Positions 2,916-18,074 are shown, numbered from the stretch's first letter. The stretch: DNA of 55,732 nucleotides from a virus (IMGVR_UViG_3300025769_000012:1-55732); one strand, 5' to 3'. Notes: generated from the sequence alone by a model not told the origin. Made by a program: numbers and translations.

Positions 2916-3368
2916 TTATGCGAGTTCGAAGTGCGGCCCATCCAAAAACGGGCGCTTGCCCTGCGACCGACGTAAATCAATGTACGCGTTCATCGCGTCT
3001 TCCATCGTACCATTCCATTCCCGAATGTCTGGGATATGCCACGCGCAACCCCAACGGATGCCGACGTCACACGCTTCTGCACCCTTTTTCATGGCATCTG
3101 CCACTTCGTCGTACAAATTCAATTCCCACGATCCCCGCGAACCCAAATAGACCATAAGGTCGACGGCCTCGCCGTCGATGTGCTTGGACTTCATCGTCTT
3201 ACTGGCACCCTTGGCCACCAGCTCACGCTGTTCTTCAATAGTCCGCAGCCCACAAATCACTCCAAAGTCAACTTTGGTCTCGGTGATCGCGTATTTGACA
3301 ACCGCAATCATGCGCTCGTCTACGCCTTCCATTCTATCCAGACTACGCTGGGATAATTTAAACGCCAT
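2916..3368 (-). CDS. Endolysin, peptidase M15 (L-Ala-D-Glu peptidase-like)
   Basis: GLRT..EQ, SKH..G.AVD, WG..W, DGPHFEL Zn-peptidase motifs. Confidence 0.9.
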   Translation of the reverse strand: MAFKLSQRSLDRMEGVDERMIAVVKYAITETKVDFGVICGLRTIEEQRELVAKGASKTMKSKHIDGEAVDLMVYLGSRGSWELNLYDEVADAMKKGAEACDVGIRWGCAWHIPDIREWNGTMEDAMNAYIDLRRSQGKRPFLDGPHFELA

Positions 3369-3843
3369 TTGTCGCCCTTTCTATGTTGAAGCGAACATTC
3401 TCGTGGTCCGGATAATGCACTACCACAGGCCCCTCGGGGCATTCATAGTTGATAGTGGCCAGCAACGTAGCTTCACCCAAAGCCACACGGTCGTAGTGGC
3501 CCTCGCGAATAAAAACGTTGAAACCAAATTTATCGACCTTGTCGTTGGCGGGCCCTGAAAATTTGGTAACGCTAGGGGTTGCCGGATGAACAACATATTC
3601 GCTGTCTCTGATTTCCAGAGTAAATCCCGTGACGTCACAATCATCACGTATCTTTTCTCTGGCTACGATAACGCGGAACGGGCCATCAACAGGCCCGTCC
3701 GTAATTTCAAAGTGTTCTGGTGCCCAGATCAAGATAGGTTTATCAAACAGACCAAGTTTATCGGACAACGTATAACCGCCGCCAATCAAAGCAAAGGTCG
3801 CTGTTACAACCCCGATACCCTTAGTAACTGCTTCTACATCCAT
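3358..3843 (-). CDS. Membrane-anchored protein in lysis module
   Basis: N-terminal hydrophobic helix, two Cys; between holin and endolysin. Confidence 0.65.
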   Translation of the reverse strand: MDVEAVTKGIGVVTATFALIGGGYTLSDKLGLFDKPILIWAPEHFEITDGPVDGPFRVIVAREKIRDDCDVTGFTLEIRDSEYVVHPATPSVTKFSGPANDKVDKFGFNVFIREGHYDRVALGEATLLATINYECPEGPVVVHYPDHENVRFNIERATNGV

Positions 3844-3844
3844 C

Positions 3845-4249
3845 TCACTTAGCTACGCCTTTCGCTTTCTCATAAGTACGCAAGCCACCAAGGCCCAGCA
3901 TACCCAACAAAACCGTCATCAGGCTGTCCATATCAAACGACGGCAAATCGCTTGGGTGCAAACCCGTGACGTTAAACGCAACCAAAACAAATACGATAAG
4001 TGGGTATAAGATAAAGTGGTACGCTAACGCGGCTGCACATACCCAACCCACCATCGGTCTCCACCCCGCCACAAAAATACTGCGGTGTGCAGCTTCTGTT
4101 TTGTTTACTTCGAGCTGACCCATTGTCTGCTCGTGCATTTGTTTTTCAGCCATTGTCGCAATCTCATGCGCCAACTTGGCTTTTTCGTCAGCGTCCGGAA
4201 TAAACTTGTCCAAAAGACTACTTACCGGACCAATCAGTGCTTGTAACAT
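3845..4249 (-). CDS. Holin, 3-TM (GTA holin-like)
   Basis: LLDKFIPD, FVAGWRPMVGWVC, LLGMLGLGGLRTYEK motifs; GGAGG RBS. Confidence 0.88.
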   Translation of the reverse strand: MLQALIGPVSSLLDKFIPDADEKAKLAHEIATMAEKQMHEQTMGQLEVNKTEAAHRSIFVAGWRPMVGWVCAAALAYHFILYPLIVFVLVAFNVTGLHPSDLPSFDMDSLMTVLLGMLGLGGLRTYEKAKGVAK

Positions 4250-4316
4250 GGGTCTCCTCCTAAGATTTCCCGCATTTTATCCTATACCGATTTGTTAAAT
4301 TTTTAAAGAATAAAGG

Positions 4317-4637
4317 TTACTTGCGGGACATCCACGCGGACGCCCCCATGTATGCGCCAACCACACCCGCCATGGAGATGTAGAACAAACCGAACAGATC
4401 AGACAACGCGGTTACTCGCTCCACAGATACCGCAGGAGTGACAAGAAGAAGGGTAAAAGCAAGACAAGCACCGAGAGCCACAGTAGCCATGTGCTTCTGC
4501 GCTCTAAGTTTTCTAATCTGCGCTTCTGCTTCTCCAATCTCTTTAGCAGCCGCAAGCTCTTCGTCTGTAATGATTCCATCTTTGTCTATGTCGTACTTCG
4601 AATAAGCCGTCCCTTTTTCAAACGTTTTACTTGTCAT
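4317..4637 (-). CDS. 2-TM membrane protein with EF-hand-like loop
   Basis: DIDKDGIITDEE loop, then two hydrophobic helices; start moved to the ATG at 4637. Confidence 0.65.
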   Translation of the reverse strand: MTSKTFEKGTAYSKYDIDKDGIITDEELAAAKEIGEAEAQIRKLRAQKHMATVALGACLAFTLLLVTPAVSVERVTALSDLFGLFYISMAGVVGAYMGASAWMSRK

Positions 4638-4668
4638 AGCGCACCATCCCTCAAAGTACTTTCCCTGT

Positions 4669-4833
4669 TTATTCCGGTATAACCTCAAAGCAATATACCG
4701 TAGTTTGACTGGTGGTTATCAAGACTTTTGCATCTTCAAGAGCTTCCCTACACTCGTTCTCAGTGGTAAACTGATTAAGTTGATAATGCTCAATGTTGTT
4801 ATTCATAACTTGGAACCATACCAAAAACCACAT
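4669..4833 (-). CDS. Small hypothetical protein (54 aa, not in ORF track)
   Basis: MWFLVWFQVMNNNIEHYQLNQF...YCFEVIPE; TGATG coupling with the upstream gene. Confidence 0.65.
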   Translation of the reverse strand: MWFLVWFQVMNNNIEHYQLNQFTTENECREALEDAKVLITTSQTTVYCFEVIPE

Positions 4834-5306
4834 CACCACTTCCCCTGACTTCTACCCATGAAATACAGTACAATAGCCAAACCAATGATGCCTGAAAGCA
4901 CGAGCAAGATACCTACGGTCCACTCTATTAAGGCGCGTTTAAACTCTTCTTTCCTGTAAATTTCTTCTTTGCGCTGCTTTCGCATCTGCGCCTCAATGTG
5001 CAGAACTTCCTCCCAAGCAGAAGGACCGTACTGGAAACTGATGAAGCTCTTGATTTCATTGCGCATTTCGGACATCTTTTTTCTTTGCGCAAATATTTCT
5101 ATGGCGCTATGCGTATCTGATCCTTTAAATTTATACCAAGGAGGGTTCTTGATTTGCTCTTCAGCAAAGGCAAAATCGCTGCAAGCCTTGCCCCACTTGC
5201 CAAGCTGACCCGTAATATCTTGCAGCTCACGGCCTACGGAAATGCCATGCTTGATAGCGTTGTAGGCGGATGTGGCAAGGCCAACGGCTGTGATAGGATC
5301 AATCAT
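4833..5306 (-). CDS. Hypothetical protein with C-terminal TM helix
   Basis: 157 aa, MIDPITA start, coiled coil, hydrophobic C-terminus; ATGA coupling. Confidence 0.75.
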   Translation of the reverse strand: MIDPITAVGLATSAYNAIKHGISVGRELQDITGQLGKWGKACSDFAFAEEQIKNPPWYKFKGSDTHSAIEIFAQRKKMSEMRNEIKSFISFQYGPSAWEEVLHIEAQMRKQRKEEIYRKEEFKRALIEWTVGILLVLSGIIGLAIVLYFMGRSQGKW

Positions 5307-5485
5307 GTGTCCATGTACCTCGCAGGGCAGTAAGCATCTGGGTGGACAACGTGCCGTTTATCGTACCATTGACCGTTCTTTCCGCCCGGTGCGCCACAGT
5401 CGTAGTAGCAGGCTTTATAGAACGACGTGCCGTAGTTGTTTACGAAAGTGTGTCCGTACCCGACAAATACAAGAACACACCACAC
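5303..5485 (-). CDS. Small Cys-containing hypothetical protein
   Basis: 60 aa, GTG start after GGAG RBS, coupled to the next gene. Confidence 0.6.
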   Translation of the reverse strand: MWCVLVFVGYGHTFVNNYGTSFYKACYYDCGAPGGKNGQWYDKRHVVHPDAYCPARYMDT

Positions 5486-5527
5486 TAAAACTCTCCGACA
5501 AACCTCTTGCCCTTCTTTAAAGGCATA

Positions 5528-5728
5528 TCAGCACCCCATAAAATCTGTGCCCTTAATGGCTGCACCGGCACCACGCATTTTCATCTTGCGAGGCGTATCA
5601 CTAGCCATAGGCGCTGGCGCAGACTTACCGTAAGGGATACGACCCTGACCTTTGATGTCCGCATACTCAACCGCCTTCGGCGGGTCTTTAGGCGCAGAGC
5701 CGTTTACTTTTACTGTACGATTTTTCAT
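5528..5728 (-). CDS. Small basic protein
   Basis: 66 aa, C-terminal RGAGAAIKGT motif; GGAG RBS. Confidence 0.75.
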   Translation of the reverse strand: MKNRTVKVNGSAPKDPPKAVEYADIKGQGRIPYGKSAPAPMASDTPRKMKMRGAGAAIKGTDFMGC

Positions 5729-6486
5729 GTTGGTCTCCTAAATGGACTGTTTAGAGATGCTTGCTGCACCACTTGCTGCGTATTAATGGGCGAGCCGTAA
5801 GCCGTAGGAACAGAAGCCTGTCCACTAGGCGGGCGGTAAAACGGCGACAAGTCGCCTACCATTCCAGCCGAATAAGACGTCGGGCTAGTGCCGTAAGTCC
5901 CAGACGAGGCTTGCTGCTGTTGCGTGTTGCCCGTGTCTTGGTTCTCCTGAACCAACGAGCCAATACCGCTGTCCATAGCAGTCGTGCCCGCGTTAATGTT
6001 GTCCATCGACGTTAAACTATCGGGGTTATAGTTTATACCCGTCCCGCCAGAATACTGAGAAACAAGTTGTTGCGCCGCATCCAGAGCTGCTTGATTGTTC
6101 GGAGCGTGTTGTTGCACAAACGCAAGGCGGTTTTGAGCGATTTCCGGATTGGATTCCATCAAAGAATTGTTATAGGCAATCTGGCTTGTGTTAAACTGAC
6201 GGTGTGCCGCCTTATATTGCGGATCACTAGCCACACCGCTCGCCCACGTATTTAGGTGCCAATCAGCAAAGTCATCACCCGAAGACATATTGTCAAAAGC
6301 GCCCAGACTATCCGCAGCCTCATACAAAGCCTTCTGCGTCATACGCTTAGAACCGTCGGCAAACGTCAACAAAACCATGTCGTTGCCTAACGCCTCGTTT
6401 CTGCCACTGCTCACATCCGTCATTTTGACAGCGCCGCCGTCCTCAAACCGCTGCGGATACGCATAGTTCAAGCTCTTTCCCATCAT
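5725..6486 (-). CDS. Hypothetical (probable virion) protein
   Basis: 253 aa coupled to the portal gene; N-terminal FEDGGAV motif; low-complexity C-terminus. Confidence 0.7.
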   Translation of the reverse strand: MMGKSLNYAYPQRFEDGGAVKMTDVSSGRNEALGNDMVLLTFADGSKRMTQKALYEAADSLGAFDNMSSGDDFADWHLNTWASGVASDPQYKAAHRQFNTSQIAYNNSLMESNPEIAQNRLAFVQQHAPNNQAALDAAQQLVSQYSGGTGINYNPDSLTSMDNINAGTTAMDSGIGSLVQENQDTGNTQQQQASSGTYGTSPTSYSAGMVGDLSPFYRPPSGQASVPTAYGSPINTQQVVQQASLNSPFRRPT

Positions 6487-8945
6487 TGCTGCGGCCCCCC
6501 TTGGTTACGTTGTTTCAACAGCTCACGCTGCATTGCAGCGTCGATGCGAGCCTGAGTTTGACGCTCTTGCGCCGCCAACCGCTCTCCAAACTGCTGAGAA
6601 CGAATTTGCTGGCCCTGCGCGTCCAACTGTACCTTGGCTTGGTCGATCTGTTGATCGGCCTGATCCGAAGCAGCCTTTTGCTGCAACTCGGCTTCCTTGA
6701 GCTGTACAAGTGGGTCCGGGGCCCCCGCGCCAGATAGTTGCTGCGACAAATCGCGAACCTGTTGCAAACCTTCCGCAACAAACTGAGCCGTCATCTGCTC
6801 CATTTGCAGCATCTGTTCGTCGTCCGCAGGCTGACCGCCTTGTTGCTGAACCATTTGCAAATATTGCTGTGCCGCCTGCTCGCGAGCCGCGATCTGGACA
6901 TGCTCCATAACGTGCTTTTGCAAGTTGATAGCGACCGGAGGCATCTGACCAACCATCGGTGTCGCCCCAAAAGTAAGGTGCGCCATGATGTGCGCCTGAT
7001 GGTTCTGACCTTCAAACGCCGTCATCGGCAACTGATCCAACGCGTTGATGTTCTCTTGTGCTGGATCAAGCGGCTCTGGAATTTCCGCAGGCGTCGCCTT
7101 CATCAAACGGTCCACATCGCTCACACCCAAAGCCTCATACATGTCACGGAAAACCTCGTGCATGTTGTGTATCTCTGGTGCTTGGGCCGCGAGCTGTAAT
7201 TTGGTCTGCGCGAGCATAATCCGCTGCGCTTGGCTGAATACATTCGGGTTGCTGACCGGAATAACGTCCACGCGGTCGTCAAAGTCCTTTGCCATGATCG
7301 TCTGATCGTTGCCCGGAACAGAGTACGGATACTCCTGCGGCAAGCTTTCAGACATCACGCGAGCTAGAATTTTAAACTCCTGACGCATCGCATAGTGCAA
7401 ACGCTTATGCACTGCGCTCATGACCCGCGAGCCTTGCTCCATCATGGCAATAGTCGTGCCAACAGGGGCTTGCTGGTTGCCGTCACCAACCTTCAAGTCA
7501 GTGATAGTCGCGAACCGCTGGCCAGCCTGCACAACAAAACCAAGAAGGTTAAACAGCGTCTGGTCAGGGCCCTTAAACGGCAAGGGCATGAGGCTATCGC
7601 GGATAGCCCCACCGGGAGCGTCCACGTCTCGGAACTCACCGGGCTGCAAAGGATCGTCGTCATCTCTGATACGCAGCCCACGGGCCTTGAAACCCGCTGG
7701 GAGGTTGGACAACGTACCAGCATCGATCAACTGTCGCAGTGCCGCCGTGGCGGTCCGTGACAGACCACCAATCGTATGTATCAGACCCAAGCCATAAAAC
7801 CCGAAGCCGGGTAGGAACTTGTAGTGGGTGAAGTATTGGATTTTCTTTTTAAGCTCGTCTTCTTCACTGTAGTTACGGCGGATAGACAGGACTTGACCGT
7901 TGTCCAAGGACATTGTCACAACGTAGGGAACGCGAATACCGGTTGGTTCGCCGTTTTCGTCTACGTCTTCATAGCCCTCAAGGTCCAAATCAACGTGGCA
8001 CTCAAGGATTGTGCAGTCATAATCAATCTGCGAAGGCTCAATCCCGTCAATACGATCAATCGTATCTTCGACTTGGTTAAGCTCTTTCTGGGCAGGAATG
8101 ACCTCAACGTCCAAATACGTCCCCGCCAACTGGCGCTTGCGCAAATCATTGAGCGACATCCGAACAACCTGCGTGATGTTCGGACATGTTTCGAGGTCCG
8201 CGGTCTCATACGGAACAACCAAGTTTTCCGCAGGGACAAACTTGGATACCGCTCGACCCAGCGTTTCGTCATAGTAAGTTTTCTTGAACGTAGAACCCGC
8301 CAGCGGCAAATAGAACAACATCTGGTCCATGTCGGGCGTATATTCTTCCATCACATTCGTGATGTAGTAGTTCATAAACGTCTTAACGCGCTGCGCTTGA
8401 GCTACCTTTTCGTTCGATTCAGCGCCCATAACCACAGTGCGGACGGGCCCCGAAGGAGGTAGAAGCTCGTTAAATGCCTGCGCTTGGAACTGCGTCGCAG
8501 CTTCCGCCAATAGCGGGTGCGTTACGCCAGTCGCGCCACGGAAAGGCTGCGTCCGATCTTCGTAAGTAAAGCCCAGAAGCTCCAGACCATCCTTGTAAGC
8601 ATCTTCCCATTCCTGACGGCTCGCCTTGTTGGCGTCATACTCGTCCAAAAGCTCACCCGCAATACGGGCCAGCTCGCGATCCGGCATCTCTTCCGCCAAG
8701 TTCGAATAAAAATCTTCGCTTTCACCACGCATGTCCTGCGGATCAAAGTCTATCTCGACACCACCGTCGTCCGTCTGAGTAATCCCAATCTCGCCAACAC
8801 CCGAAGCGTCGATCATTGCAGTAACGTCGTTTTGACCGCTCGGAAGCTCAATCTCCAGCTCCGCGTTCAATTCGTCTTCGTTGAGCTGAGACGGAACCAT
8901 CGTGTCCATCAAGCTGCTTTTGTATCCGTTGCGTGGTTCTGCCAT
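6483..8945 (-). CDS. Portal protein
   Basis: 820 aa near TerL; HPLLAEA, LPLAGSTFKK, GFYGLG motifs and a Gln-rich C-terminal barrel as in P22-like portals. Confidence 0.88.
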   Translation of the reverse strand: MAEPRNGYKSSLMDTMVPSQLNEDELNAELEIELPSGQNDVTAMIDASGVGEIGITQTDDGGVEIDFDPQDMRGESEDFYSNLAEEMPDRELARIAGELLDEYDANKASRQEWEDAYKDGLELLGFTYEDRTQPFRGATGVTHPLLAEAATQFQAQAFNELLPPSGPVRTVVMGAESNEKVAQAQRVKTFMNYYITNVMEEYTPDMDQMLFYLPLAGSTFKKTYYDETLGRAVSKFVPAENLVVPYETADLETCPNITQVVRMSLNDLRKRQLAGTYLDVEVIPAQKELNQVEDTIDRIDGIEPSQIDYDCTILECHVDLDLEGYEDVDENGEPTGIRVPYVVTMSLDNGQVLSIRRNYSEEDELKKKIQYFTHYKFLPGFGFYGLGLIHTIGGLSRTATAALRQLIDAGTLSNLPAGFKARGLRIRDDDDPLQPGEFRDVDAPGGAIRDSLMPLPFKGPDQTLFNLLGFVVQAGQRFATITDLKVGDGNQQAPVGTTIAMMEQGSRVMSAVHKRLHYAMRQEFKILARVMSESLPQEYPYSVPGNDQTIMAKDFDDRVDVIPVSNPNVFSQAQRIMLAQTKLQLAAQAPEIHNMHEVFRDMYEALGVSDVDRLMKATPAEIPEPLDPAQENINALDQLPMTAFEGQNHQAHIMAHLTFGATPMVGQMPPVAINLQKHVMEHVQIAAREQAAQQYLQMVQQQGGQPADDEQMLQMEQMTAQFVAEGLQQVRDLSQQLSGAGAPDPLVQLKEAELQQKAASDQADQQIDQAKVQLDAQGQQIRSQQFGERLAAQERQTQARIDAAMQRELLKQRNQGGPQQ

Positions 8946-9869: not shown

Positions 9870-11333
9870 TTAATAATACATTCGCACTCTAACAGAGTTT
9901 TGTTCATCTTCCCAGTCATCAGTTGGGAGTTGGACAAAATTTCCTTGCCTATATCGCATAAGAGCCTGCGTCATACTATCAACCAAGTCATCATGCTCCC
10001 CATTCGGAAACGCCGCAACTTCCTCTACTAGCTCATCTGCCCACACCTCATCGGGGGCCCAAACCATACCTGCCTCAAACAAGGGTGAAACACTATGAAC
10101 TCTTGATACCTTATCGTTGCCTCGGCTCGGTGTAAAGTTAACAACAGGTATCCCCATGTTCCGCAATTCGTGCGTCAAAGGCATACCACTCGCCTTCGCC
10201 TCAACAATTACCGTGTCAGGCTCCCAAAATTTGTAATTTTCCAAAGCAACCTGCTTCAACTCCGGGAAATCCCACCTCCCCTTCTTACTGTCCAACAAAA
10301 TCAAATTTGGACCCGAACCACCCTCGTTCGGATAAAACACACCCCACGTCGTAATCGCCGAATAATCCGCCGTCTCACGCTTCGAAAACGCCGTATCATA
10401 ACTCTGGATCACATATTCTAACTGCGGAACCTTCGGCTTGTCCCAAACACGCCACCACTCCCGCTTGATAATCGCGTTCTCTTCACCCGTAGGATTTTGC
10501 TGATACTGCGCGTTCCACTTGCTCGGTGGAATAGACGCCTTAACCGCAGTCAAATCCTCCAAACTCCAAAACTCAGGCCAACACGGAGTCCCATCCTCAA
10601 AAATTGCAGGTAATTCAACAACTTCCCATTGATCCGCTAACGGGTCTTTAGCCATCGCCTTCAATAACTGACCCGTCATGTCCTTCTCAGACCACCGCGT
10701 CTGAACCAAAACAATCGAACCACCCGGCTGAAGACGCTGTCGGGGGCCCCCAGTGTACCAATCCCAAGCATCGTCAAAACCACTATTGCTCATAGCAGTC
10801 TGCTCAGAATGAGGGTCATCGATAATCACCAAGTCACCACCACGACCCGCCAAGTTTGAACCAACACCAACCGCGTAGTACATACCACCCTTGTTCGTGT
10901 CCCAACGTCCACTCGCCTTACTATCCGCAGCTAACTTAACCTCCGGGAAAATCTCCCGAAACTCATCACTCTCAATCAAATTCTTCGTCTTACGGCCAAA
11001 GTTAACCGCCAACTCAGTCGTGTGCGTCGCCTGAATGATCTTCTTCTTAGGATCACGGCCCATGAACCACGCCGGAAACAAAAAAGACGCAAACTCACTC
11101 TTCGTGTGCCGCGGGGCCATGTTGATAATCAGACGCTTCAACTCGCCACGAGCCACCCGCTCAAGCTTCTCTGCAATGATCCGGTGATGACGGCCCGCGA
11201 TGAAGTCAGGCCAAACTGTTTTCACGAAAGTTAAAAAATCATCTTGGCACTTCTCGTTCTTTTCGAGCTGCGCGAGCCGCAGTTCAAGCTTCAATTTTTT
11301 CTCTTCTAAGGCTGGATTTGCTGCTGCACTCAT
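9870..11333 (-). CDS. terL: Terminase large subunit
   Basis: MAPRHTKS Walker A, IIDDP Walker B, QTRW coupling motif, SYDTA and HDDLVD nuclease motifs. Confidence 0.95.
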   Translation of the reverse strand: MSAAANPALEEKKLKLELRLAQLEKNEKCQDDFLTFVKTVWPDFIAGRHHRIIAEKLERVARGELKRLIINMAPRHTKSEFASFLFPAWFMGRDPKKKIIQATHTTELAVNFGRKTKNLIESDEFREIFPEVKLAADSKASGRWDTNKGGMYYAVGVGSNLAGRGGDLVIIDDPHSEQTAMSNSGFDDAWDWYTGGPRQRLQPGGSIVLVQTRWSEKDMTGQLLKAMAKDPLADQWEVVELPAIFEDGTPCWPEFWSLEDLTAVKASIPPSKWNAQYQQNPTGEENAIIKREWWRVWDKPKVPQLEYVIQSYDTAFSKRETADYSAITTWGVFYPNEGGSGPNLILLDSKKGRWDFPELKQVALENYKFWEPDTVIVEAKASGMPLTHELRNMGIPVVNFTPSRGNDKVSRVHSVSPLFEAGMVWAPDEVWADELVEEVAAFPNGEHDDLVDSMTQALMRYRQGNFVQLPTDDWEDEQNSVRVRMYY

Positions 11334-11370
11334 AGGGGCCCCTAGCTAACTTTTCATACGCAGTTTTTAA

Positions 11371-11386
11371 TGTTTCACGTGAAACA
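11371..11386. promoter_or_regulatory. parS: parS-like site 1 (TGTTTCACGTGAAACA)
   Basis: Perfect 16-bp palindrome identical to the bacterial chromosomal parS consensus; intergenic. Confidence 0.85.
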
Positions 11387-11394
11387 TTCACGCG

Positions 11395-11410
11395 TGTTCC
11401 ACGTGGAACA
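11395..11410. promoter_or_regulatory. parS: parS-like site 2 (TGTTCCACGTGGAACA)
   Basis: Second perfect 16-bp palindrome, a known parS variant, 8 bp from site 1. Confidence 0.85.
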
Positions 11411-11869
11411 TAGCACGAAATATATGCGATTTTAACCGCAAATATAAGACAGTTAAAGCCCGTTCAAAAAATCACGTAATTATTTGCGAGAAACATGGCC
11501 CTAGCCACCGTGACGTCGGCCCGGGGGCGGGGGTCGCGGCGCGGCGATTTCGGCCTTCGATCTGTGCCTTTTGACCCGATAGCTAGGGGCCCCTGCCCGT
11601 TTTTCTCGGCCTTCGGATGTCGGCCCGCGGTCCATCCGGTGCGGCGATTGCCGGTCGATCCGGTGCCCGCGATCCGGTGCCCGGTGCCCTCGGCCCTTGG
11701 CTAATTTGCACCGGCTGGGCTGCTCGATCCATGCAGCGCGGCGGGCGGATAACTGACACCGGCCAGCGATAACCGGCACCGGCTGGGGGTGCGCGGGGCG
11801 CGGCCCGTAGGTTTTGCCCTGGGGGCGCGGCCCTTGGCCCGGCTTGTTTAACTGTTAATCACCAGACAT

Positions 11870-11893
11870 AAAAAAGGCCGCCCGAAGGCGGCC
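11870..11893 (-). terminator. Intrinsic terminator (repeated family)
   Basis: GGCCGCC-TTCG-GGCGGCC-TTTTTT on the minus strand. Confidence 0.9.
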
Positions 11894-11915
11894 AGTGTTG
11901 CGCGGTGGCGGTGGT

Positions 11916-12320
11916 TTAGCTGATGTCGATATTCACGATAATATCGCCGTCGCGGATCATGTCTCGGACAGTGTCTCGGATTTCATCGTCGCCGGTATGG
12001 TCACCCTCTAACCGCTCGACGCGGTCGCGTAGGTCTTCCAGCGGGCGGCATTGCTCGACGGCATCGTCAATCATCCTTTCCAGCTCGGGCCGGATAATGG
12101 CCAGCAACGCGGCGGCGGCCTCGTCGCGCTGGGTGCGTATGCTTTGAATTTCGCCGCTCATCTGGTTAACGCTGCGCTCGATCCGCTCGGCATAGTCGCG
12201 CAGGTTTTTGAGATCATGCGCGGCTGCGTCGAGATCGTGGGCAAGGTCGGTCTGGTCAGTCAGTCGGACATTGCTTGCGATTGCGTGTAGGTGGTCGGGG
12301 TTTGTTTTTAGTTCGATCAT
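11916..12320 (-). CDS. Early hypothetical coiled-coil protein
   Basis: 134 aa with its own promoter, CTACGGAGG RBS and terminator. Confidence 0.8.
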   Translation of the reverse strand: MIELKTNPDHLHAIASNVRLTDQTDLAHDLDAAAHDLKNLRDYAERIERSVNQMSGEIQSIRTQRDEAAAALLAIIRPELERMIDDAVEQCRPLEDLRDRVERLEGDHTGDDEIRDTVRDMIRDGDIIVNIDIS

Positions 12321-12460: not shown

Positions 12461-12886
12461 TTAATCAAAGCGGGCGATTTTATAAGGCCCGTCCAAACCG
12501 ATGCGCACTGCGGTTATTCCGTAGTCATAAACAAAACAGAAAACGCGGCCTTCAAAACCAAAACGGGCCAGCGGGTGCAAGTCTGCGTCGTCTTCGTGTT
12601 CGCTGCGGTAGGTGCCCGCATGGTCCAGCGATCCGCCGAAGGGATAGCAAAAGCCGCCCATTCCGTAAACCTCGTCCATTGCCTCGCAGATACCGTCGAG
12701 CGATACGCCCAGCTCGCCGTTAGATACTGACACGCAAGCCTCGCAGAAAAAGTCGGGGATGATCCCGCAAGCCTCGACGATGTCGGCGGGGCGGGCTGCT
12801 CCGATGTTCTGATCCCGTGCGGGATTTAAAACGCGGTCGAGAATGATTTCAGACGGGCGAAAGTTTAAGTTAAATATTTGTGCCAT
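12461..12886 (-). CDS. Early hypothetical protein
   Basis: 141-aa stand-alone cassette with CTACGGAGG RBS. Confidence 0.8.
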   Translation of the reverse strand: MAQIFNLNFRPSEIILDRVLNPARDQNIGAARPADIVEACGIIPDFFCEACVSVSNGELGVSLDGICEAMDEVYGMGGFCYPFGGSLDHAGTYRSEHEDDADLHPLARFGFEGRVFCFVYDYGITAVRIGLDGPYKIARFD

Positions 12887-13025: not shown

Positions 13026-14216
13026 TTATGCTGCGACTTTGTCCAGCAATGCCCCGGCCTTGCGCTCGATCTCAATGCGGGCGTCTTGGTGGGGGATGTC
13101 GCGGGCGATTGCGGTTATCGCCTGCGCTGCATCCCAAACGGTCTCAACGGGGCGGCCCTCTTCCTCGATGTGGCGGGCTGCCGCTGCTTTGGCCATGCGT
13201 CCAGACAATCCGGCGCGCTTAGTCAAAAAGGCCAAGCGGTCGTCGTCATCGCTGGCCACCTTCGCGGCCTTCGCTGCTTGCACACCCTCGACAAACGTCG
13301 CGGTCGATCCGGTCGCAAAAGATTGCAAAGCCGGGCGGGCTTCCATTGCAAACCGATCCGGCGCGAATTTAGTGTGCCGGATTTTGATTTCGTGGAAATT
13401 CTCCACGCCCCAAAGATTGCGGTTCATGCAAACCCCGCGCAGATACATCGCCGCAATGCCTGCGGTTTTGCTGCCGGTCTCACTGTTCCAAGCGTAAAAC
13501 CCGCGGAACATCAAATCGGGCTCGCCGTTCGCAAGCTTGCCGACCTCGATGGGGTTGCGGTCGTCGACAAGGAAAACGAAAACGTCGCGGTCGGATGCGA
13601 AAAGGGTCGTCGTGTCCATGCTTACGGGGATTTCCGGATCATAAACGGCCAAACCGTTTTGGCTGCCGACCATCATGCCGGGCACCTTCCAGCGCCCGCC
13701 CGATGCGTCGACCAATTGTTTAATTGGTTCCAAGATTTCCCAGTCATAAATCCGACCATAGTCGGGGCCAGTTGCCGCCCGCAGTTCGCCGCCGTCTTGC
13801 TGGTGTCCGTAAACTTTGACCAGCTCGCGGCCTCGGTTATAGCGCAAACCCCATTGGATACAGTCCGCCGCAAGCGGGGCGGGCAGGTCTTTCAAATATC
13901 CAGACGGTGCGCCCGCCAGTTGGGCAAGCTGTCCAAAGCTCCAATTGGTGGGGGTGTTGATATGCTCGCGCCCGTTGTCGTCGTCATATTCGACAAAGAT
14001 ATTCCCCGCGCTGGGGCTGCCCTCGTCGATGTCTCCCACAATTTTCATGCGGTGCGTGTCGACGGTGCGCGACGTCATGCGCTGGGCGTCGATCTTTTTA
14101 AAGGCCAGCATATCGTCCAGCGACAAAAACTTTTGATCGTCTGGGCGGCTGAACCATTGCGAAGAAACGGCGCTGTTTCCGATACCATGGGCGAAAGCGT
14201 TAGTTGTGTAAGTCAT
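13026..14216 (-). CDS. DUF932-family protein
   Basis: 396 aa; WFSRPDD, PTNWSFGQL, YGRIYD, ASDRDVFVFL, WNSETG, VCMNRNLWG, IRH motifs. Confidence 0.75.
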   Translation of the reverse strand: MTYTTNAFAHGIGNSAVSSQWFSRPDDQKFLSLDDMLAFKKIDAQRMTSRTVDTHRMKIVGDIDEGSPSAGNIFVEYDDDNGREHINTPTNWSFGQLAQLAGAPSGYLKDLPAPLAADCIQWGLRYNRGRELVKVYGHQQDGGELRAATGPDYGRIYDWEILEPIKQLVDASGGRWKVPGMMVGSQNGLAVYDPEIPVSMDTTTLFASDRDVFVFLVDDRNPIEVGKLANGEPDLMFRGFYAWNSETGSKTAGIAAMYLRGVCMNRNLWGVENFHEIKIRHTKFAPDRFAMEARPALQSFATGSTATFVEGVQAAKAAKVASDDDDRLAFLTKRAGLSGRMAKAAAARHIEEEGRPVETVWDAAQAITAIARDIPHQDARIEIERKAGALLDKVAA

Positions 14217-15623: not shown

Positions 15624-16085
15624 TTATCTGGGACTAATCAAGCCCAAAATTGTTTCCCAGTCTGGATCGCCCTCGCACTCGAACAGCGGTTCCACCGCCA
15701 TGCCCTCTAGCTTCAGGTCCATTGCGGCGCTGCCGGGGTACAAAAGCACACGCTGCGGCAGGGTCTTAGTTTTCTTTTTCAGCACCAAAACCCAGACGCT
15801 TGCATGTGCATGATTGGAAAGCCACGCGACTTGGTGGGGGCGCAGCTCGACAGCTTTTCCGCCTGTCGCCTTCAGCTCCACAAAGTGAAAGTCTCCGTCT
15901 TCATCACAAAGCAGGACGTCCGGCACACCGGGCATCGCCCACGTTTCAAGCCTCGTCGCTGTAATCTTCCGCGAACTCTTCGTCAGCGCCGTCTTCATCA
16001 TTTGCCAAAAGTCGGACTCTCGCTTTGTCGCGGTTCTGGGAATTGCTTTGTCCTTCGGGAGTAACGTCGATAGTGATCGGGGCAT
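15624..16085 (-). CDS. PD-(D/E)xK nuclease (VRR-NUC/Holliday-junction-resolvase-like)
   Basis: RLE..PGVPD...FVELK...LRPHQVAW; start uncertain because it overlaps the terS 3' end. Confidence 0.8.
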   Translation of the reverse strand: MPRSLSTLLPKDKAIPRTATKRESDFWQMMKTALTKSSRKITATRLETWAMPGVPDVLLCDEDGDFHFVELKATGGKAVELRPHQVAWLSNHAHASVWVLVLKKKTKTLPQRVLLYPGSAAMDLKLEGMAVEPLFECEGDPDWETILGLISPR

Positions 16086-16590
16086 ATTGGTTCTTTATCT
16101 CTTCTAGGGCCTTTAGCACATCGTCCTTGCTCATACTGTCGATGCTGCCGTGGCGGATTTCTGATTTGCTTACATAAATGTCGCCCTGCGCTTGCCCCCG
16201 TCGATACTCAGCTTGGACTGCTGCTGAATATGCGCCGTTCTGCAAAGCCATATCACGGATGCTTTGCAAATCTCTCAGGTGTCGTTGGTACGTCACGCCA
16301 AACTTTTCGTCCAGCTCGGCTCGATAAGCTTGGATGGCTGCAACAACATGCGGGCTTATGTGTGGATTGGTCAGCTCATATGCCCGAGTGTGGGCAGAAC
16401 TTGCAGGATAACCAGCATTGATGGCGGCTTCCCTCATTGTGATCTGGCCGTCCTTCGAGACCAGCTCTTTTACAAAAAGCTCTTGCTTGCGGGTCAAAGG
16501 CTGGGCCTTTGATGCTCGTGGCCGTCCCGGTTTTTTCTTTACCGCGACAGGCACGGATTTAGCGGTGGTCATGTCTTTTCTACGGGCCAT
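15946..16590 (-). CDS. terS: Terminase small subunit
   Basis: LTRKQELFV...AAINAGY...AYELT.P.V N-terminal HTH typical of Terminase_2. Confidence 0.8.
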   Translation of the reverse strand: MARRKDMTTAKSVPVAVKKKPGRPRASKAQPLTRKQELFVKELVSKDGQITMREAAINAGYPASSAHTRAYELTNPHISPHVVAAIQAYRAELDEKFGVTYQRHLRDLQSIRDMALQNGAYSAAVQAEYRRGQAQGDIYVSKSEIRHGSIDSMSKDDVLKALEEIKNQYAPITIDVTPEGQSNSQNRDKARVRLLANDEDGADEEFAEDYSDEA

Positions 16591-17302: not shown

Positions 17303-17601
17303 TGTTCTTCCTCCGCGATGTACACGCGTTTCATCGGCTTCGTTCTGAAGAAGCCTTTGTACTGTGGATGTTGGTGCATGAACAAACGTGCGTAGAGCGC
17401 GATGTAGTCATTGCTGATTTTGTAGTCGTCTCCGGTGGTGACGATCATGGTCTCCCACCGGATTCGATTAACGATTAGCCAAGCGGACAAGCGAGAGTGT
17501 CCTCGCTCGATAGCTTGGAAGGTGAAGCGTTCGAAGAGTTTGTAGAACTCTGGGTTTTGTTTGTGCCACGCCCACCATTTTTCTTTGAGGTCTTCCTTCA
17601 T
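17299..17601 (-). CDS. Conserved phage hypothetical protein
   Basis: 100 aa; H..NP..Y..F, IRWE, KISND...YAR, FF motifs; ATGA coupling. Confidence 0.8.
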   Translation of the reverse strand: MKEDLKEKWWAWHKQNPEFYKLFERFTFQAIERGHSRLSAWLIVNRIRWETMIVTTGDDYKISNDYIALYARLFMHQHPQYKGFFRTKPMKRVYIAEEEQ

Positions 17602-18074
17602 GTAAACAACATGACGGCGATGCCAGCCAACAAGGCTCCTACTACGGCTTGAGCTATATAGCGTTTTGTCTTGGATGGTTCCTCAACAGGCTCGAAGTCG
17701 TATAGATCGTTCACGCCTTCGCCTAACCGGGCGGCATCATCTGGCTGCAAGGCTTCTTTACCGAACAGGGCATTGAGCCCCGGTTCGAGTTCCTTGGCCA
17801 GTTCGGCGGAGGTAATGGGCGCTTTATCTACTTTAGCGCAAGCGGCTTTAATGTCTTTGACCGGCTGTTTCATCCAGTTGGGGTCGTTGCCTTTTAGCAG
17901 CCATCCCATGACTTCGCTTCGATCCCAGCGGTTGACTTTTTTCGGCCCGCGGGCGTTGTTGCTTGCGATTTTCTTTGGTTTTGGGAACGTGCCCAGTTTG
18001 ACGCGACGATAGACAGTGGGCTTTGAGACTTTTGCCATCAAGCACACTTCGTCGATATTGATAAGGTCTTTCAT
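17598..18074 (-). CDS. AlpA/Xis-type HTH regulator with capsid-like peptide and C-terminal TM helix
   Basis: INIDEVC...VSKPTVYRRVKLGTFPKP...RW..SEV..W; internal LAKELEPGLNALFG; hydrophobic C-terminus. Confidence 0.85.
   Translation of the reverse strand: MKDLINIDEVCLMAKVSKPTVYRRVKLGTFPKPKKIASNNARGPKKVNRWDRSEVMGWLLKGNDPNWMKQPVKDIKAACAKVDKAPITSAELAKELEPGLNALFGKEALQPDDAARLGEGVNDLYDFEPVEEPSKTKRYIAQAVVGALLAGIAVMLFT

What the first reader, a model, noticed from the sequence alone, without database searches (positions are those of the whole stretch)
11369..11432. Two perfect chromosomal parS sites in a phage that encodes no ParA/ParB
Seen: TGTTTCACGTGAAACA (11371-11386) and TGTTCCACGTGGAACA (11395-11410), centres 24 bp apart, about 40 bp upstream of terL. 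The two copies differ symmetrically (T/A vs C/G), so the palindrome is preserved. A possible extended -10 (TGcTATGTT, minus strand) overlaps site 2, and a TATGCGAT box lies at 11423-11430. I recognised no ParB, ParA or integrase. Known: this 16-mer is the bacterial chromosomal centromere bound by ParB, which spreads, recruits SMC and can silence nearby promoters. Inference: the phage borrows host ParABS/SMC to position or segregate its DNA (a carrier or plasmid-like state), to titrate ParB and stall host segregation, or to time terminase/portal transcription.
Basis: partly seen in the sequence, partly recalled or inferred. Interest (0 to 1): 0.85.

Follow-up and report, generated by a model that had tools for sequence, protein, structure and literature searches.

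The report
Orphan host-type parS pair before terL
An aquatic phage with no partition genes carries two perfect copies of the bacterial chromosome "centromere" in the leader of its packaging and lysis operon, most likely to recruit the host's ParB protein, as Bacillus phage phi29 is reported to do.

Summary
TGTTTCACGTGAAACA (11371-11386) and TGTTCCACGTGGAACA (11395-11410) are the only matches in this complete 55.7-kb virus record (chance expectation 0.01).

They are under selection. 64 of 80 scorable terL rows carry one or two perfect cores in the same place, while the 8-bp spacer between paired sites varies freely.

The sites lie about +13 to +52 downstream of a conserved sigma70-like promoter. 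That promoter drives terL, portal, holin and endolysin.

Six-frame HMM searches found no ParB_N, HTH_ParB, ParA-type ATPase, tyrosine integrase or resolvase.

Both variants are documented chromosomal parS. The same 16-mer occurs in more than 119 viral stretches, against 2 for a reversed control. None of 50 such records encodes ParB_N.

The idea is not new. phi29 carries host-Spo0J parS sites without a ParB of its own, and phi29-like contigs are the largest group I could classify in the two scans.

Best reading: these are host-ParB loading sites that tether the phage genome and may brake the late promoter. Binding is untested and the host is unknown. I rate it a new variant of a known kind.

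The parts
11371..11386 (.). parS site 1, TGTTTCACGTGAAACA (T/A type), nearer to terL. About +37 to +52 of the predicted transcript.
   Evidence: This 16-mer makes up 56 of the 91 sites found in 80 relatives. It is listed as the Hyphomonas chromosomal parS in the review read.
11395..11410 (.). parS site 2, TGTTCCACGTGGAACA (C/G type), farther from terL. About +13 to +28 of the predicted transcript.
   Evidence: It makes up 27 of the 91 sites in relatives. It is listed as the Pseudomonas putida / P. aeruginosa chromosomal parS.
11429..11456 (-). Predicted sigma70-type promoter of the terL operon: -35 TTAACT (11456-11451), 16-nt spacer, -10 TAAAAT (11434-11429). Start predicted near 11422.
   Evidence: Consensus scan. 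The block TTAACTGTCTTATA...TAAAATCGCATA is conserved in relatives, including those without parS. The start site is inferred, not mapped.
11423..11434 (-). TAAAATCGCATA, a -10 plus start-region motif shared by a promoter class of this phage.
   Evidence: 12 matches at up to 2 mismatches against 4.4 expected. Minus-strand copies lie at 12369-80, 12933-44, 15617-28 and 18110-31, in front of other genes.
11407..11415 (-). Candidate second, extended -10 (TGCTATGTT). Its last 4 nt are the first 4 nt of parS site 2.
   Evidence: Read from the sequence. GTGnTATGTT is kept in relatives. Whether it works as a promoter is not tested.
9870..11333 (-). terL, large terminase, first gene of the operon behind the sites.
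   Evidence: Terminase_6C match, E 6e-9. 57-63% identical to the TerL of HTVC023P-type phages.
2916..8945 (-). Downstream genes on the same strand with small gaps: portal (6483-8945), holin (3845-4249), endolysin (2916-3368).
   Evidence: PHROG matches and ORF layout. Membership in one operon is inferred from strand and spacing.
11334..11348 (-). terL ribosome-binding region, which is also the proximal arm of a 15-nt perfect inverted repeat. The distal arm is at 11580-11594.
   Evidence: I1. A core of GGGACCC paired with GGGTCCC changes on both sides in relatives.
11477..11500 (-). Conserved box GGCCATGTTTCTCGCAAATAATTAC upstream of the promoter, with one parS-like half (TGTTTC).
   Evidence: D4. 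It is present even in relatives that lack parS.
11876..11893 (-). Intrinsic terminator-like hairpin ending the upstream gene, so that terL probably depends on its own promoter.
13026..14216 (-). DUF932 gene, whose presence goes with parS among close relatives.
   Evidence: Pfam DUF932. 26 of 27 loci with it have parS, against 1 of 7 without it. This rests on only about 2-3 independent clades.

Best explanation
The two palindromes are genuine, selected, chromosomal-type parS sites with no partner gene in the phage. They work as loading sites for the host's own ParB. They sit in the roughly 90-nt leader between a sigma70-like promoter and the terL start codon, and that promoter drives the operon for packaging, portal and lysis.

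Shown here: the sites are perfect and conserved, they abut the promoter, and the phage has no recognisable ParB or ParA.

Inferred: host ParB dimers nucleate on the pair. From there they (i) link the phage genome to the host ParABS/SMC machinery, so that it is positioned or inherited with the origin region when infection stalls. This carrier-like state is reported for phi29 with Spo0J. They also (ii) occupy about +13 to +52 of the late promoter, and overlap a possible second -10. This would damp packaging and lysis genes while ParB is bound, until replication or transcription clears it.

My odds that host ParB is the ligand are about 0.65. The 0.5 below is for the whole statement, including tethering plus braking.
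For: Identity: both 16-mers match the consensus TGTTNCACGTGAAACA. Each is listed as a native chromosomal parS (Hyphomonas; Pseudomonas putida and P. aeruginosa) in the review PMC7022226 (passages and Table 1).

Not chance: 2 perfect matches against 0.01 expected.

Selection: 64 of 80 scorable terL rows (TerL 87-100% identical; 79 relatives plus the window itself) have one or two perfect 14-nt cores within 300 bp upstream of terL. In 7 distinct 64-nt two-site segments every site position is invariant except 5 and 12, while spacer columns show up to 4 states.

Half-sites mix freely. TGTTTCACGTGGAACA occurs 4 times and TGTTCCACGTGAAACA once, plus 3 with C at position 1. A dimer that reads two half-sites would allow this.

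No ligand of the ParB type in the phage, and no ParA, integrase or resolvase.

Recurrence in unrelated phages:
- The T-type 16-mer is in more than 119 viral stretches, against 2 for the reversed control.
- 23 of the 119 hold a TerL 25-91% identical to the window's. In 9 of these 23 a site centre lies within 150 bp upstream of terL.
- A lineage with TerL only 29-30% identical has 2-5 sites upstream of terL.
- 0 of 50 and 0 of 5 parS-bearing records have ParB_N.

Precedent: phi29 has parS sites for host Spo0J and four perfect sites in its record. 25 of the 119 stretches, and 65 of 110 stretches with site pairs, are phi29-like.

Position: the sites lie 18 nt or 6 nt after the -10 in the two main leader types. 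ParB at intergenic parS3 and parS4 is reported to repress the adjacent genes in P. aeruginosa.

Candidate hosts: all 5 MAGs that hold related phage contigs encode ParB_N, and three of them also have chromosomal parS off the phage contig.
Against: No binding data exist, and no tool here can test protein-DNA binding.

The host is unknown. The only hints are MAG bins: 3 Verrucomicrobiota, 1 Rhodobacteraceae, 1 Maricaulis.

16 of 80 scorable rows have no perfect core, and some copies are decaying (L008, L063, L069, L075). The cultured relatives HTVC023P, 023Pt_psg01 and DSL-LC04 lack sites upstream of terL. The element is therefore dispensable.

A position just after a -10 is also where an operator for a phage repressor would sit.

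Within the clade, parS goes with a phage module (DUF932 and a 141-aa protein), so a phage partner cannot be excluded.

In wider relatives the site can lie 0.8-3.8 kb from terL or downstream of it. That weakens a strict promoter role.

The phi29 use is tied to sporulation, which probably does not apply to the likely hosts here.

The ParB_N searches rest on a fast first look that was validated on cellular genomes only.
Confidence: 0.5

Rival explanations
1. The sites are an operator for a phage-encoded regulator of the late promoter. An early phage protein binds the palindromes and holds back terL, portal and lysis genes. The likeness to parS is convergence or mimicry.
For: The sites lie at about +1 to +52 of a conserved promoter. 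The copy number changes at least 14 times on the terL tree. Presence goes with a phage gene module: DUF932 in 26 of 27 loci against 1 of 7. The phage has an HTH_17/AlpA-like protein at 17598-18074. More distant relatives carry a different A/T-rich palindrome in the same place.
Against: All 16 positions match host parS. The same 16-mer is found in phages whose TerL is only 29-30% identical, and in phi29-like phages. Operators of phage regulators normally drift together with their proteins. At least four other copies of the same promoter class in this genome carry no site. No ParB-type HTH was found. The DUF932 model shows no clear DNA-reading fold: best Z is 6.7, an OB-like match over residues 46-152, which is below the level the tool calls meaningful.
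Confidence: 0.15
2. The sites are a ParB sink. They bind host ParB, but their purpose is to draw ParB (and with it SMC loading) away from the chromosome as the phage genome multiplies. This would stall host segregation or division, rather than tether or regulate the phage.
For: It rests on the same binding evidence as the best explanation. A replicating 55-kb genome with two sites would soon outnumber the few chromosomal sites: 0-3 parS off the phage contig per candidate host MAG. The phage has its own polymerase, primase and helicases.
Against: It does not explain why the sites are kept in the terL leader rather than anywhere in the genome. One to three sites per genome is a weak sink if ParB clamps slide off. 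No evidence of host shutdown through ParB is available.
Confidence: 0.1
3. The palindromes act in the mRNA, as 5'-leader hairpins that set the stability or translation of the terL transcript.
For: They lie in the predicted transcribed leader. The T/A to C/G change keeps pairing. The minimum-energy fold pairs the two sites with each other.
Against: The fold is not exceptional: z = -1.43, and 14 of 200 shuffles fold as well. No Rfam match at E<=1. Variants with C at 5 and A at 12 (L049, L068, L070, L071) break the pair but keep the parS consensus. The 'loop' CACGTG never varies in perfect copies. The same 16-mer occurs outside leaders and upstream of promoters in other lineages.
Confidence: 0.07
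4. The sites are a packaging signal: part of the pac or cos region read by the small terminase.
For: Sites lie next to terL in several lineages. A GC-rich repeat region lies just upstream, at 11495-11900. In phi29 one site directly follows the packaging ATPase gene.
Against: The TerS gene (15946-16590, Terminase_2) is 4.6 kb away. Different lineages would need different small terminases to read one identical host motif. 16 of 80 close rows package without it.
Confidence: 0.05

Closest known systems
parS sites of Bacillus phage phi29, bound by host Spo0J (ParB) (Meijer et al. 2005, known to me only as cited in PMC2731898; passages read)
   Same: A phage without integrase, ParA or ParB carries perfect host-type parS. 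The phi29 record has four copies of TGTTTCACGTGGAACA. The host's own ParB homologue is the reported ligand, and the reported use is to ride the host segregation machinery while the lytic cycle is held back.
   Different: phi29 is a 19-kb protein-primed phage of a spore former. Its sites are scattered, partly inside genes. In phi29-like contigs the pairs are homotypic and mostly 42 bp apart: 53 of 91 phi29-like pairs from 65 phi29-like stretches. Its late-gene brake is a different protein (Spo0A) at different sites. Here the phage is a 55.7-kb terminase-packaged phage of unknown, probably non-sporulating, aquatic hosts. The pair is heterotypic (C/G plus T/A) at 23-25 bp in 27 of 28 two-site loci. 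It is embedded in the late-promoter leader.
Chromosomal ParABS centromere (parS / ParB / ParA with SMC loading)
   Same: The 16-bp palindrome is identical, and position 5/12 tolerates T or C.
   Different: There is no cognate parAB on the replicon. The sites are not next to an identified replication origin. There are one to three sites per genome.
Phage- and plasmid-encoded partition systems (P1, N15, extrachromosomal mycobacteriophage prophages; this comparison is from recall plus the abstract of PMC7157519 in the listing)
   Same: A phage genome carries a centromere-like site for active partition.
   Different: Those elements encode their own ParA and ParB and use element-specific parS sequences, and they are temperate. 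This phage encodes neither protein and uses the host's sequence.
ParB-family proteins acting at promoters (P. aeruginosa ParB at parS3/parS4; KorB of RK2, from recall)
   Same: A ParB-type protein bound at a palindrome next to a promoter lowers expression of the adjacent genes.
   Different: Those are self-regulatory circuits of the replicon that encodes the protein. Here a virus would submit its late operon to a host protein. No repression has been shown for this promoter.

Membership tests
Chromosomal-type parS (ParB-binding centromere sequence) | 16-bp palindrome matching TGTTNCACGTGAAACA | tested here: met
   Both sites match at all specified positions. The consensus and both exact variants are listed in PMC7022226.
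Chromosomal-type parS (ParB-binding centromere sequence) | Specific binding by a ParB protein | not testable with these tools
   No tool tests protein-DNA binding. It needs EMSA or ChIP.
Chromosomal-type parS (ParB-binding centromere sequence) | More conserved than flanking DNA among relatives | tested here: met
   64 of 80 scorable rows keep at least one perfect core. The sites are invariant while the spacer varies.
Self-contained ParABS partition locus | Cognate parB (and parA) on the same replicon | tested here: not met
   No ParB_N, HTH_ParB, AAA_31 or CbiA at E<=1 in six frames of the complete record.
phi29-type orphan host parS in a virulent phage | Perfect host-type parS in a phage with no ParB, ParA, integrase or resolvase | tested here: met
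   phi29 control: four perfect sites.
phi29-type orphan host parS in a virulent phage | The host encodes a ParB that reads this sequence | tested here: inconclusive
   The host is unknown. All 5 MAGs that hold related phage contigs encode ParB_N, and three have parS off the phage contig. Binning is weak evidence of host.
phi29-type orphan host parS in a virulent phage | ParB-dependent segregation of the phage genome (into spores, in phi29) | not testable with these tools
   It needs a cultured host. The likely hosts are not spore formers; that is inference only.
Operator of a promoter (repressor site) | Overlaps the core promoter or the initial transcribed region | tested here: met
   The first site starts 18 nt or 6 nt after the predicted -10 in the two main leader types. 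The promoter is predicted, not mapped.
Operator of a promoter (repressor site) | Occupancy changes transcription | not testable with these tools
   It needs a reporter assay. The RNA contigs laid could not show transcript starts.

The most novel reading that the evidence does not exclude
An abundant group of aquatic phages hands the switch of its packaging-and-lysis operon to the host's chromosome-segregation protein. ParB loaded on the heterotypic parS pair both keeps the late promoter quiet and partitions the replicating genome with the host origin. This gives a plasmid-like carrier state without any lysogeny gene. Release comes when phage genome copies outnumber the ParB pool, or when ParB falls in a changing host, so the pair works as a copy-number or host-state timer. 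More broadly, parS without a phage ParB would be a widespread phage strategy well beyond phi29: more than 119 viral stretches against 2 for the control, and 0 of 50 records with ParB_N.
Probability: 0.2. Interest if true: 0.8.

Novelty: new variant of a known kind. Interest (0 to 1): 0.6.

Why it matters
If host ParB binds here, a common aquatic phage lineage has a lysogeny-free way to persist in and be inherited by slowly growing cells. It would also have a direct link between the host cell-cycle machinery and the timing of lysis. That bears on how 'lytic' phages behave in nutrient-poor waters, and on how infection and carrier states are counted there. The survey also suggests that the phi29 trick is far more widespread than the Bacillus literature implies. 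The element is small, and it can be tested with standard reporter, EMSA and plasmid-stability assays in any bacterium whose ParB reads this consensus.

Tried and rejected
- RNA route: the leader fold was unremarkable (z -1.43), and there was no Rfam match in 11200-12000 at E<=1.
- Expression and start mapping: only assembled contigs were on offer. Four RNA runs were laid. Contigs of relatives cover terL, the leader and part of the GC-rich region, and one 403-nt contig spans 11193-11595. Contigs cannot show starts or strand, so nothing was concluded about the transcript start.
- Host: no tRNA in the window. terL relatives in genome contigs gave only 5 MAG contigs of mixed taxonomy.
- DUF932 as a possible ligand or partner: no NCBIfam match, and no solved relative by sequence at E<=0.1. 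The model is confident (pLDDT 95.1). Foldseek found nothing at E<=0.001. VIA-align's best was Z 6.7, an RPA-like OB fold over residues 46-152, below the level the tool calls meaningful. The 13 papers that mention DUF932 give no function in their listings. One preprint places a DUF932 gene in an integrated plasmid with parA and parB (passages).
- The neighbouring small proteins (134 and 141 aa) are acidic, match no DNA-binding family and match no PHROG family.
- Literature: four full-text searches (HTVC023P) found no report of host-type parS in aquatic or HTVC023P-type phages. The main text of PMC9599517 has 0 occurrences of parS or ParB; its supplements were not open to me. PMC2168934 (Livny 2007) is not held. 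PMC7333895 gave only reference-list hits.
- The cultured Roseobacter phage CRP-902 and the Manatee Spring record nearest the second lineage have no site at up to 1 mismatch.

Full report
**What the window is**

The window is a complete virus record of 55,732 bp with direct terminal repeats. It is about 52% G+C and nearly all genes are on the minus strand.

- Its large terminase (9870-11333, minus; Terminase_6C) is 57-63% identical to that of the HTVC023P-type phages. These are Pelagibacter phages HTVC023P and HTVC027P, phage 023Pt_psg01 and phage DSL-LC04.
- On the same strand behind terL lie a portal, a holin and an endolysin. After the circular junction come a capsid protein and adaptors.
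- Upstream are a TerS (15946-16590), a VRR-NUC-like nuclease, DUF7227, DUF932 and two small acidic proteins. Further up lie DNA polymerase A, primase and helicases.

**The observation**

Site 1 ends 37 bp from the terL ATG.

- They are the only matches to TGTTNCACGTGNAACA in the genome, even with two mismatches allowed.
- With none allowed, shuffles give 0.01 matches on average and never two.
- Half-sites are not enriched: 29 found against 34 expected.

**Is it selected?**

A scan of viral contigs with TerL returned 80 loci at 87-100% protein identity.

I counted the perfect 14-nt core within 300 bp upstream of terL, in 81 rows (80 loci plus the window). 29 rows have two sites, 35 have one, 16 have none, and one has too little upstream DNA to score.

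The state changes at least 14 times on a FastTree terL tree. So the element is gained, duplicated and lost, but it is mostly kept.

- Of the 91 sites, 56 are the T/A form and 27 the C/G form. Eight mix half-sites or have C at position 1.
- In the 28 two-site loci, 27 combine one C/G and one T/A site, in either order, with centres 23-25 bp apart.
- In seven distinct 64-nt segments the sites vary only at positions 5 and 12. The 8-nt spacer shows up to four states per column.
- A few copies are visibly decaying: L008, L063, L069, L075.

**Where the sites sit**

Lining up the leaders shows a conserved block, TTAACTGTCTTATA...TAAAATCGCATA. It is present even in relatives without parS.

- The consensus scan reads this block as a sigma70-type promoter on the minus strand: -35 at 11456-11451, a 16-nt spacer, -10 at 11434-11429.
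- The motif TAtAATCGCAnA recurs on the minus strand before other genes, at 12369-80, 12933-44, 15617-28 and 18110-31. That is 12 matches against 4.4 expected.
- A strong terminator-like hairpin (11893-11876) closes the gene upstream.

terL therefore probably has its own promoter, with a start near 11422. That start is inferred. The two sites would then lie at about +13 to +28 and +37 to +52 of a roughly 90-nt leader.

In relatives the first site begins either 18 nt or 6 nt after the -10.

It may be a second, extended -10.

**Does the phage make the ligand?**

Six-frame HMM searches of the whole record at E<=1 found none of the following:

- ParB_N or HTH_ParB
- AAA_31 or CbiA, the ParA-type ATPases
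- tyrosine integrase
- resolvase

The only clear DNA-binding domain seen among the 47 predicted ORFs scanned against Pfam or PHROGs (of 68 or more) is an HTH_17/AlpA-like protein at 17598-18074.

**Why host ParB is the best candidate**

The review PMC7022226 (passages and Table 1 read) gives TGTTNCACGTGAAACA as the conserved chromosomal parS. It lists TGTTTCACGTGAAACA for Hyphomonas and TGTTCCACGTGGAACA for Pseudomonas.

The same 16-mer recurs in viral contigs far more often than a control of the same composition.

- Of the 119 stretches, 23 hold a TerL 25-91% identical to the window's. In 9 of these 23 a site centre lies within 150 bp upstream of the extrapolated terL start.
- A separate lineage has a TerL only 29-30% identical; its nearest isolates are Roseobacter phages CRP-901 and CRP-902 at 42%. 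It carries two to five copies of ATGTTTCACGTGAAACAT upstream of terL.
- None of 50 parS-bearing records tested has ParB_N, and 11 of those are at least 90% complete. None of 5 others does either, including a complete 61.5-kb genome.
- Near-complete close relatives have sites only at terL, with one extra site in one record.

A motif that stays letter-perfect across phages this different points to a ligand that is itself conserved across hosts. A fast-evolving phage regulator would not give that pattern.

**The precedent**

Passages of PMC2731898 state three things. phi29 contains five parS sites for host Spo0J. Spo0J is involved in segregating the phage genome into the prespore. Spo0A, at other sites, suppresses the lytic promoters.

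I did not read the primary paper (their reference 21). The phi29 record holds four perfect copies of TGTTTCACGTGGAACA.

My scans recover this class. 25 of 119 single-site stretches and 65 of 110 pair stretches are phi29-like by tblastn. Their pairs are mostly homotypic and 42 bp apart.

The window's kin are a distinct second group: 17 of the 110 pair stretches, of which 15 are heterotypic and 15 have 23-24 bp spacing.

**What argues against, or stays open**

- Binding is untested and the host is unknown.
- Related phage contigs sit in five MAGs: three Verrucomicrobiota, one Rhodobacteraceae, one Maricaulis. All five encode ParB_N. Three have parS off the phage contig, and one of these has T/A, C/G and mixed forms in total. 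Binning is weak evidence of host.
- Sixteen close rows and three cultured relatives lack the sites upstream of terL.
- HTVC027P has only a 14-nt perfect core about 4 kb away, in what looks like an unannotated reading frame.
- In wider relatives the sites can lie kilobases from terL. That fits a loading site better than a strict operator.
- Within the clade, parS goes with DUF932: 26 of 27 loci against 1 of 7. This reflects about two or three clades, and DUF932 is missing from other parS-bearing lineages within the DNA held.
- The DUF932 model is confident (pLDDT 95.1) but has no convincing solved relative. The best match is Z 6.7, OB-like.

**Verdict**

The reading "host-type parS without a phage ParB" is well supported. 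The ligand and the use are inferred.

I put about 0.65 on host ParB as the ligand. I put 0.5 on the combined tether-plus-brake mechanism. The remainder goes to a phage regulator (0.15), a ParB sink (0.10), RNA hairpins (0.07) and a packaging signal (0.05).

Because phi29 already established the principle, this is a new variant of a known kind. It differs in phage lineage, in its probable non-sporulating aquatic hosts, and in architecture: a heterotypic 24-bp pair built into the leader of the packaging and lysis operon.

Noticed in passing
window 11334-11348 and 11580-11594: A perfect 15-nt inverted repeat, AGGGGCCCCTAGCTA / TAGCTAGGGGCCCCT. One arm is the terL ribosome-binding region. The other lies upstream of the promoter. 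In relatives the core changes on both sides (GGGACCC with GGGTCCC). It could hide the terL start in read-through transcripts, while transcripts from the internal promoter stay open.
   Followed up: partly
window 11495-11900: A noncoding stretch much richer in G+C than the genome, full of short repeats, such as CGATCCGGTGCCCG twice in tandem at 11656-11683. GC-rich repeats also lie upstream of terL in distant relatives (L084, L085). The role is unknown; pac/cos site, origin or an RNA are all possible.
   Followed up: no
window 11477-11500 (minus strand): The box GGCCATGTTTCTCGCAAATAATTAC is conserved upstream of the terL promoter in nearly all relatives, including those without parS. It contains one parS-like half (TGTTTC).
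   Followed up: no
window 11916-12320 and 12461-12886 (minus strand): Two small, very acidic proteins (134 and 141 aa). Each has its own TAtAATCGCAnA promoter and its own strong terminator (11893-11876, 12437-12418). No PHROG family and no Pfam match above its cut-off. They vary much more among relatives (31-96% identity) than their neighbours do.
   Followed up: partly
window 13026-14216 (minus strand): The DUF932 protein is kept at 85-92% identity among the 120 best of over 7,500 database hits. It gives a very confident model (pLDDT 95.1) with no clear solved relative; residues 46-152 look OB-like (Z 6.7). Its presence goes with parS among close relatives.
   Followed up: partly
L159 10535-11462; also L120, L171, L203: A separate phage lineage (TerL 29-30% identical to the window's; nearest isolates Roseobacter phages CRP-901/902 at 42%). 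It carries two to five copies of ATGTTTCACGTGAAACAT upstream of terL — spanning about 1 kb in L159, L120 and L171, which hold three to five — amid odd short repeats. No ParB_N was found in the records that hold L159, L120 and L171 (all fragments); L203 was not tested.
   Followed up: partly
loci such as L227, L229, L244, L255: Many roughly 11-12 kb phi29-like contigs carry a parS pair about 42 bp apart near both ends of the contig. This suggests parS pairs inside terminal inverted repeats of small protein-primed phages.
   Followed up: partly
L224 1212-1227 (HTVC027P record 16411-16426 by the L224 offset; one search lists 16412-16427): The cultured Pelagibacter phage HTVC027P has CGTTTCACGTGAAACA (a perfect 14-nt core). 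It lies in a stretch with no annotated gene that reads like a VRR-NUC-type frame. HTVC023P has only a centre-mismatched look-alike.
   Followed up: partly
L221 17243-17258 (phi29): One of the four perfect phi29 sites starts at the base right after the stop codon of the packaging ATPase gene 16, just before the bidirectional terminator.
   Followed up: no
L083, L084, L085, upstream of terL: Relatives without parS carry A/T-rich palindromes of the GCAAAAAATTTTTTGC kind in the last 40 bp or so before terL. So this position seems to hold some symmetric element in each clade.
   Followed up: no
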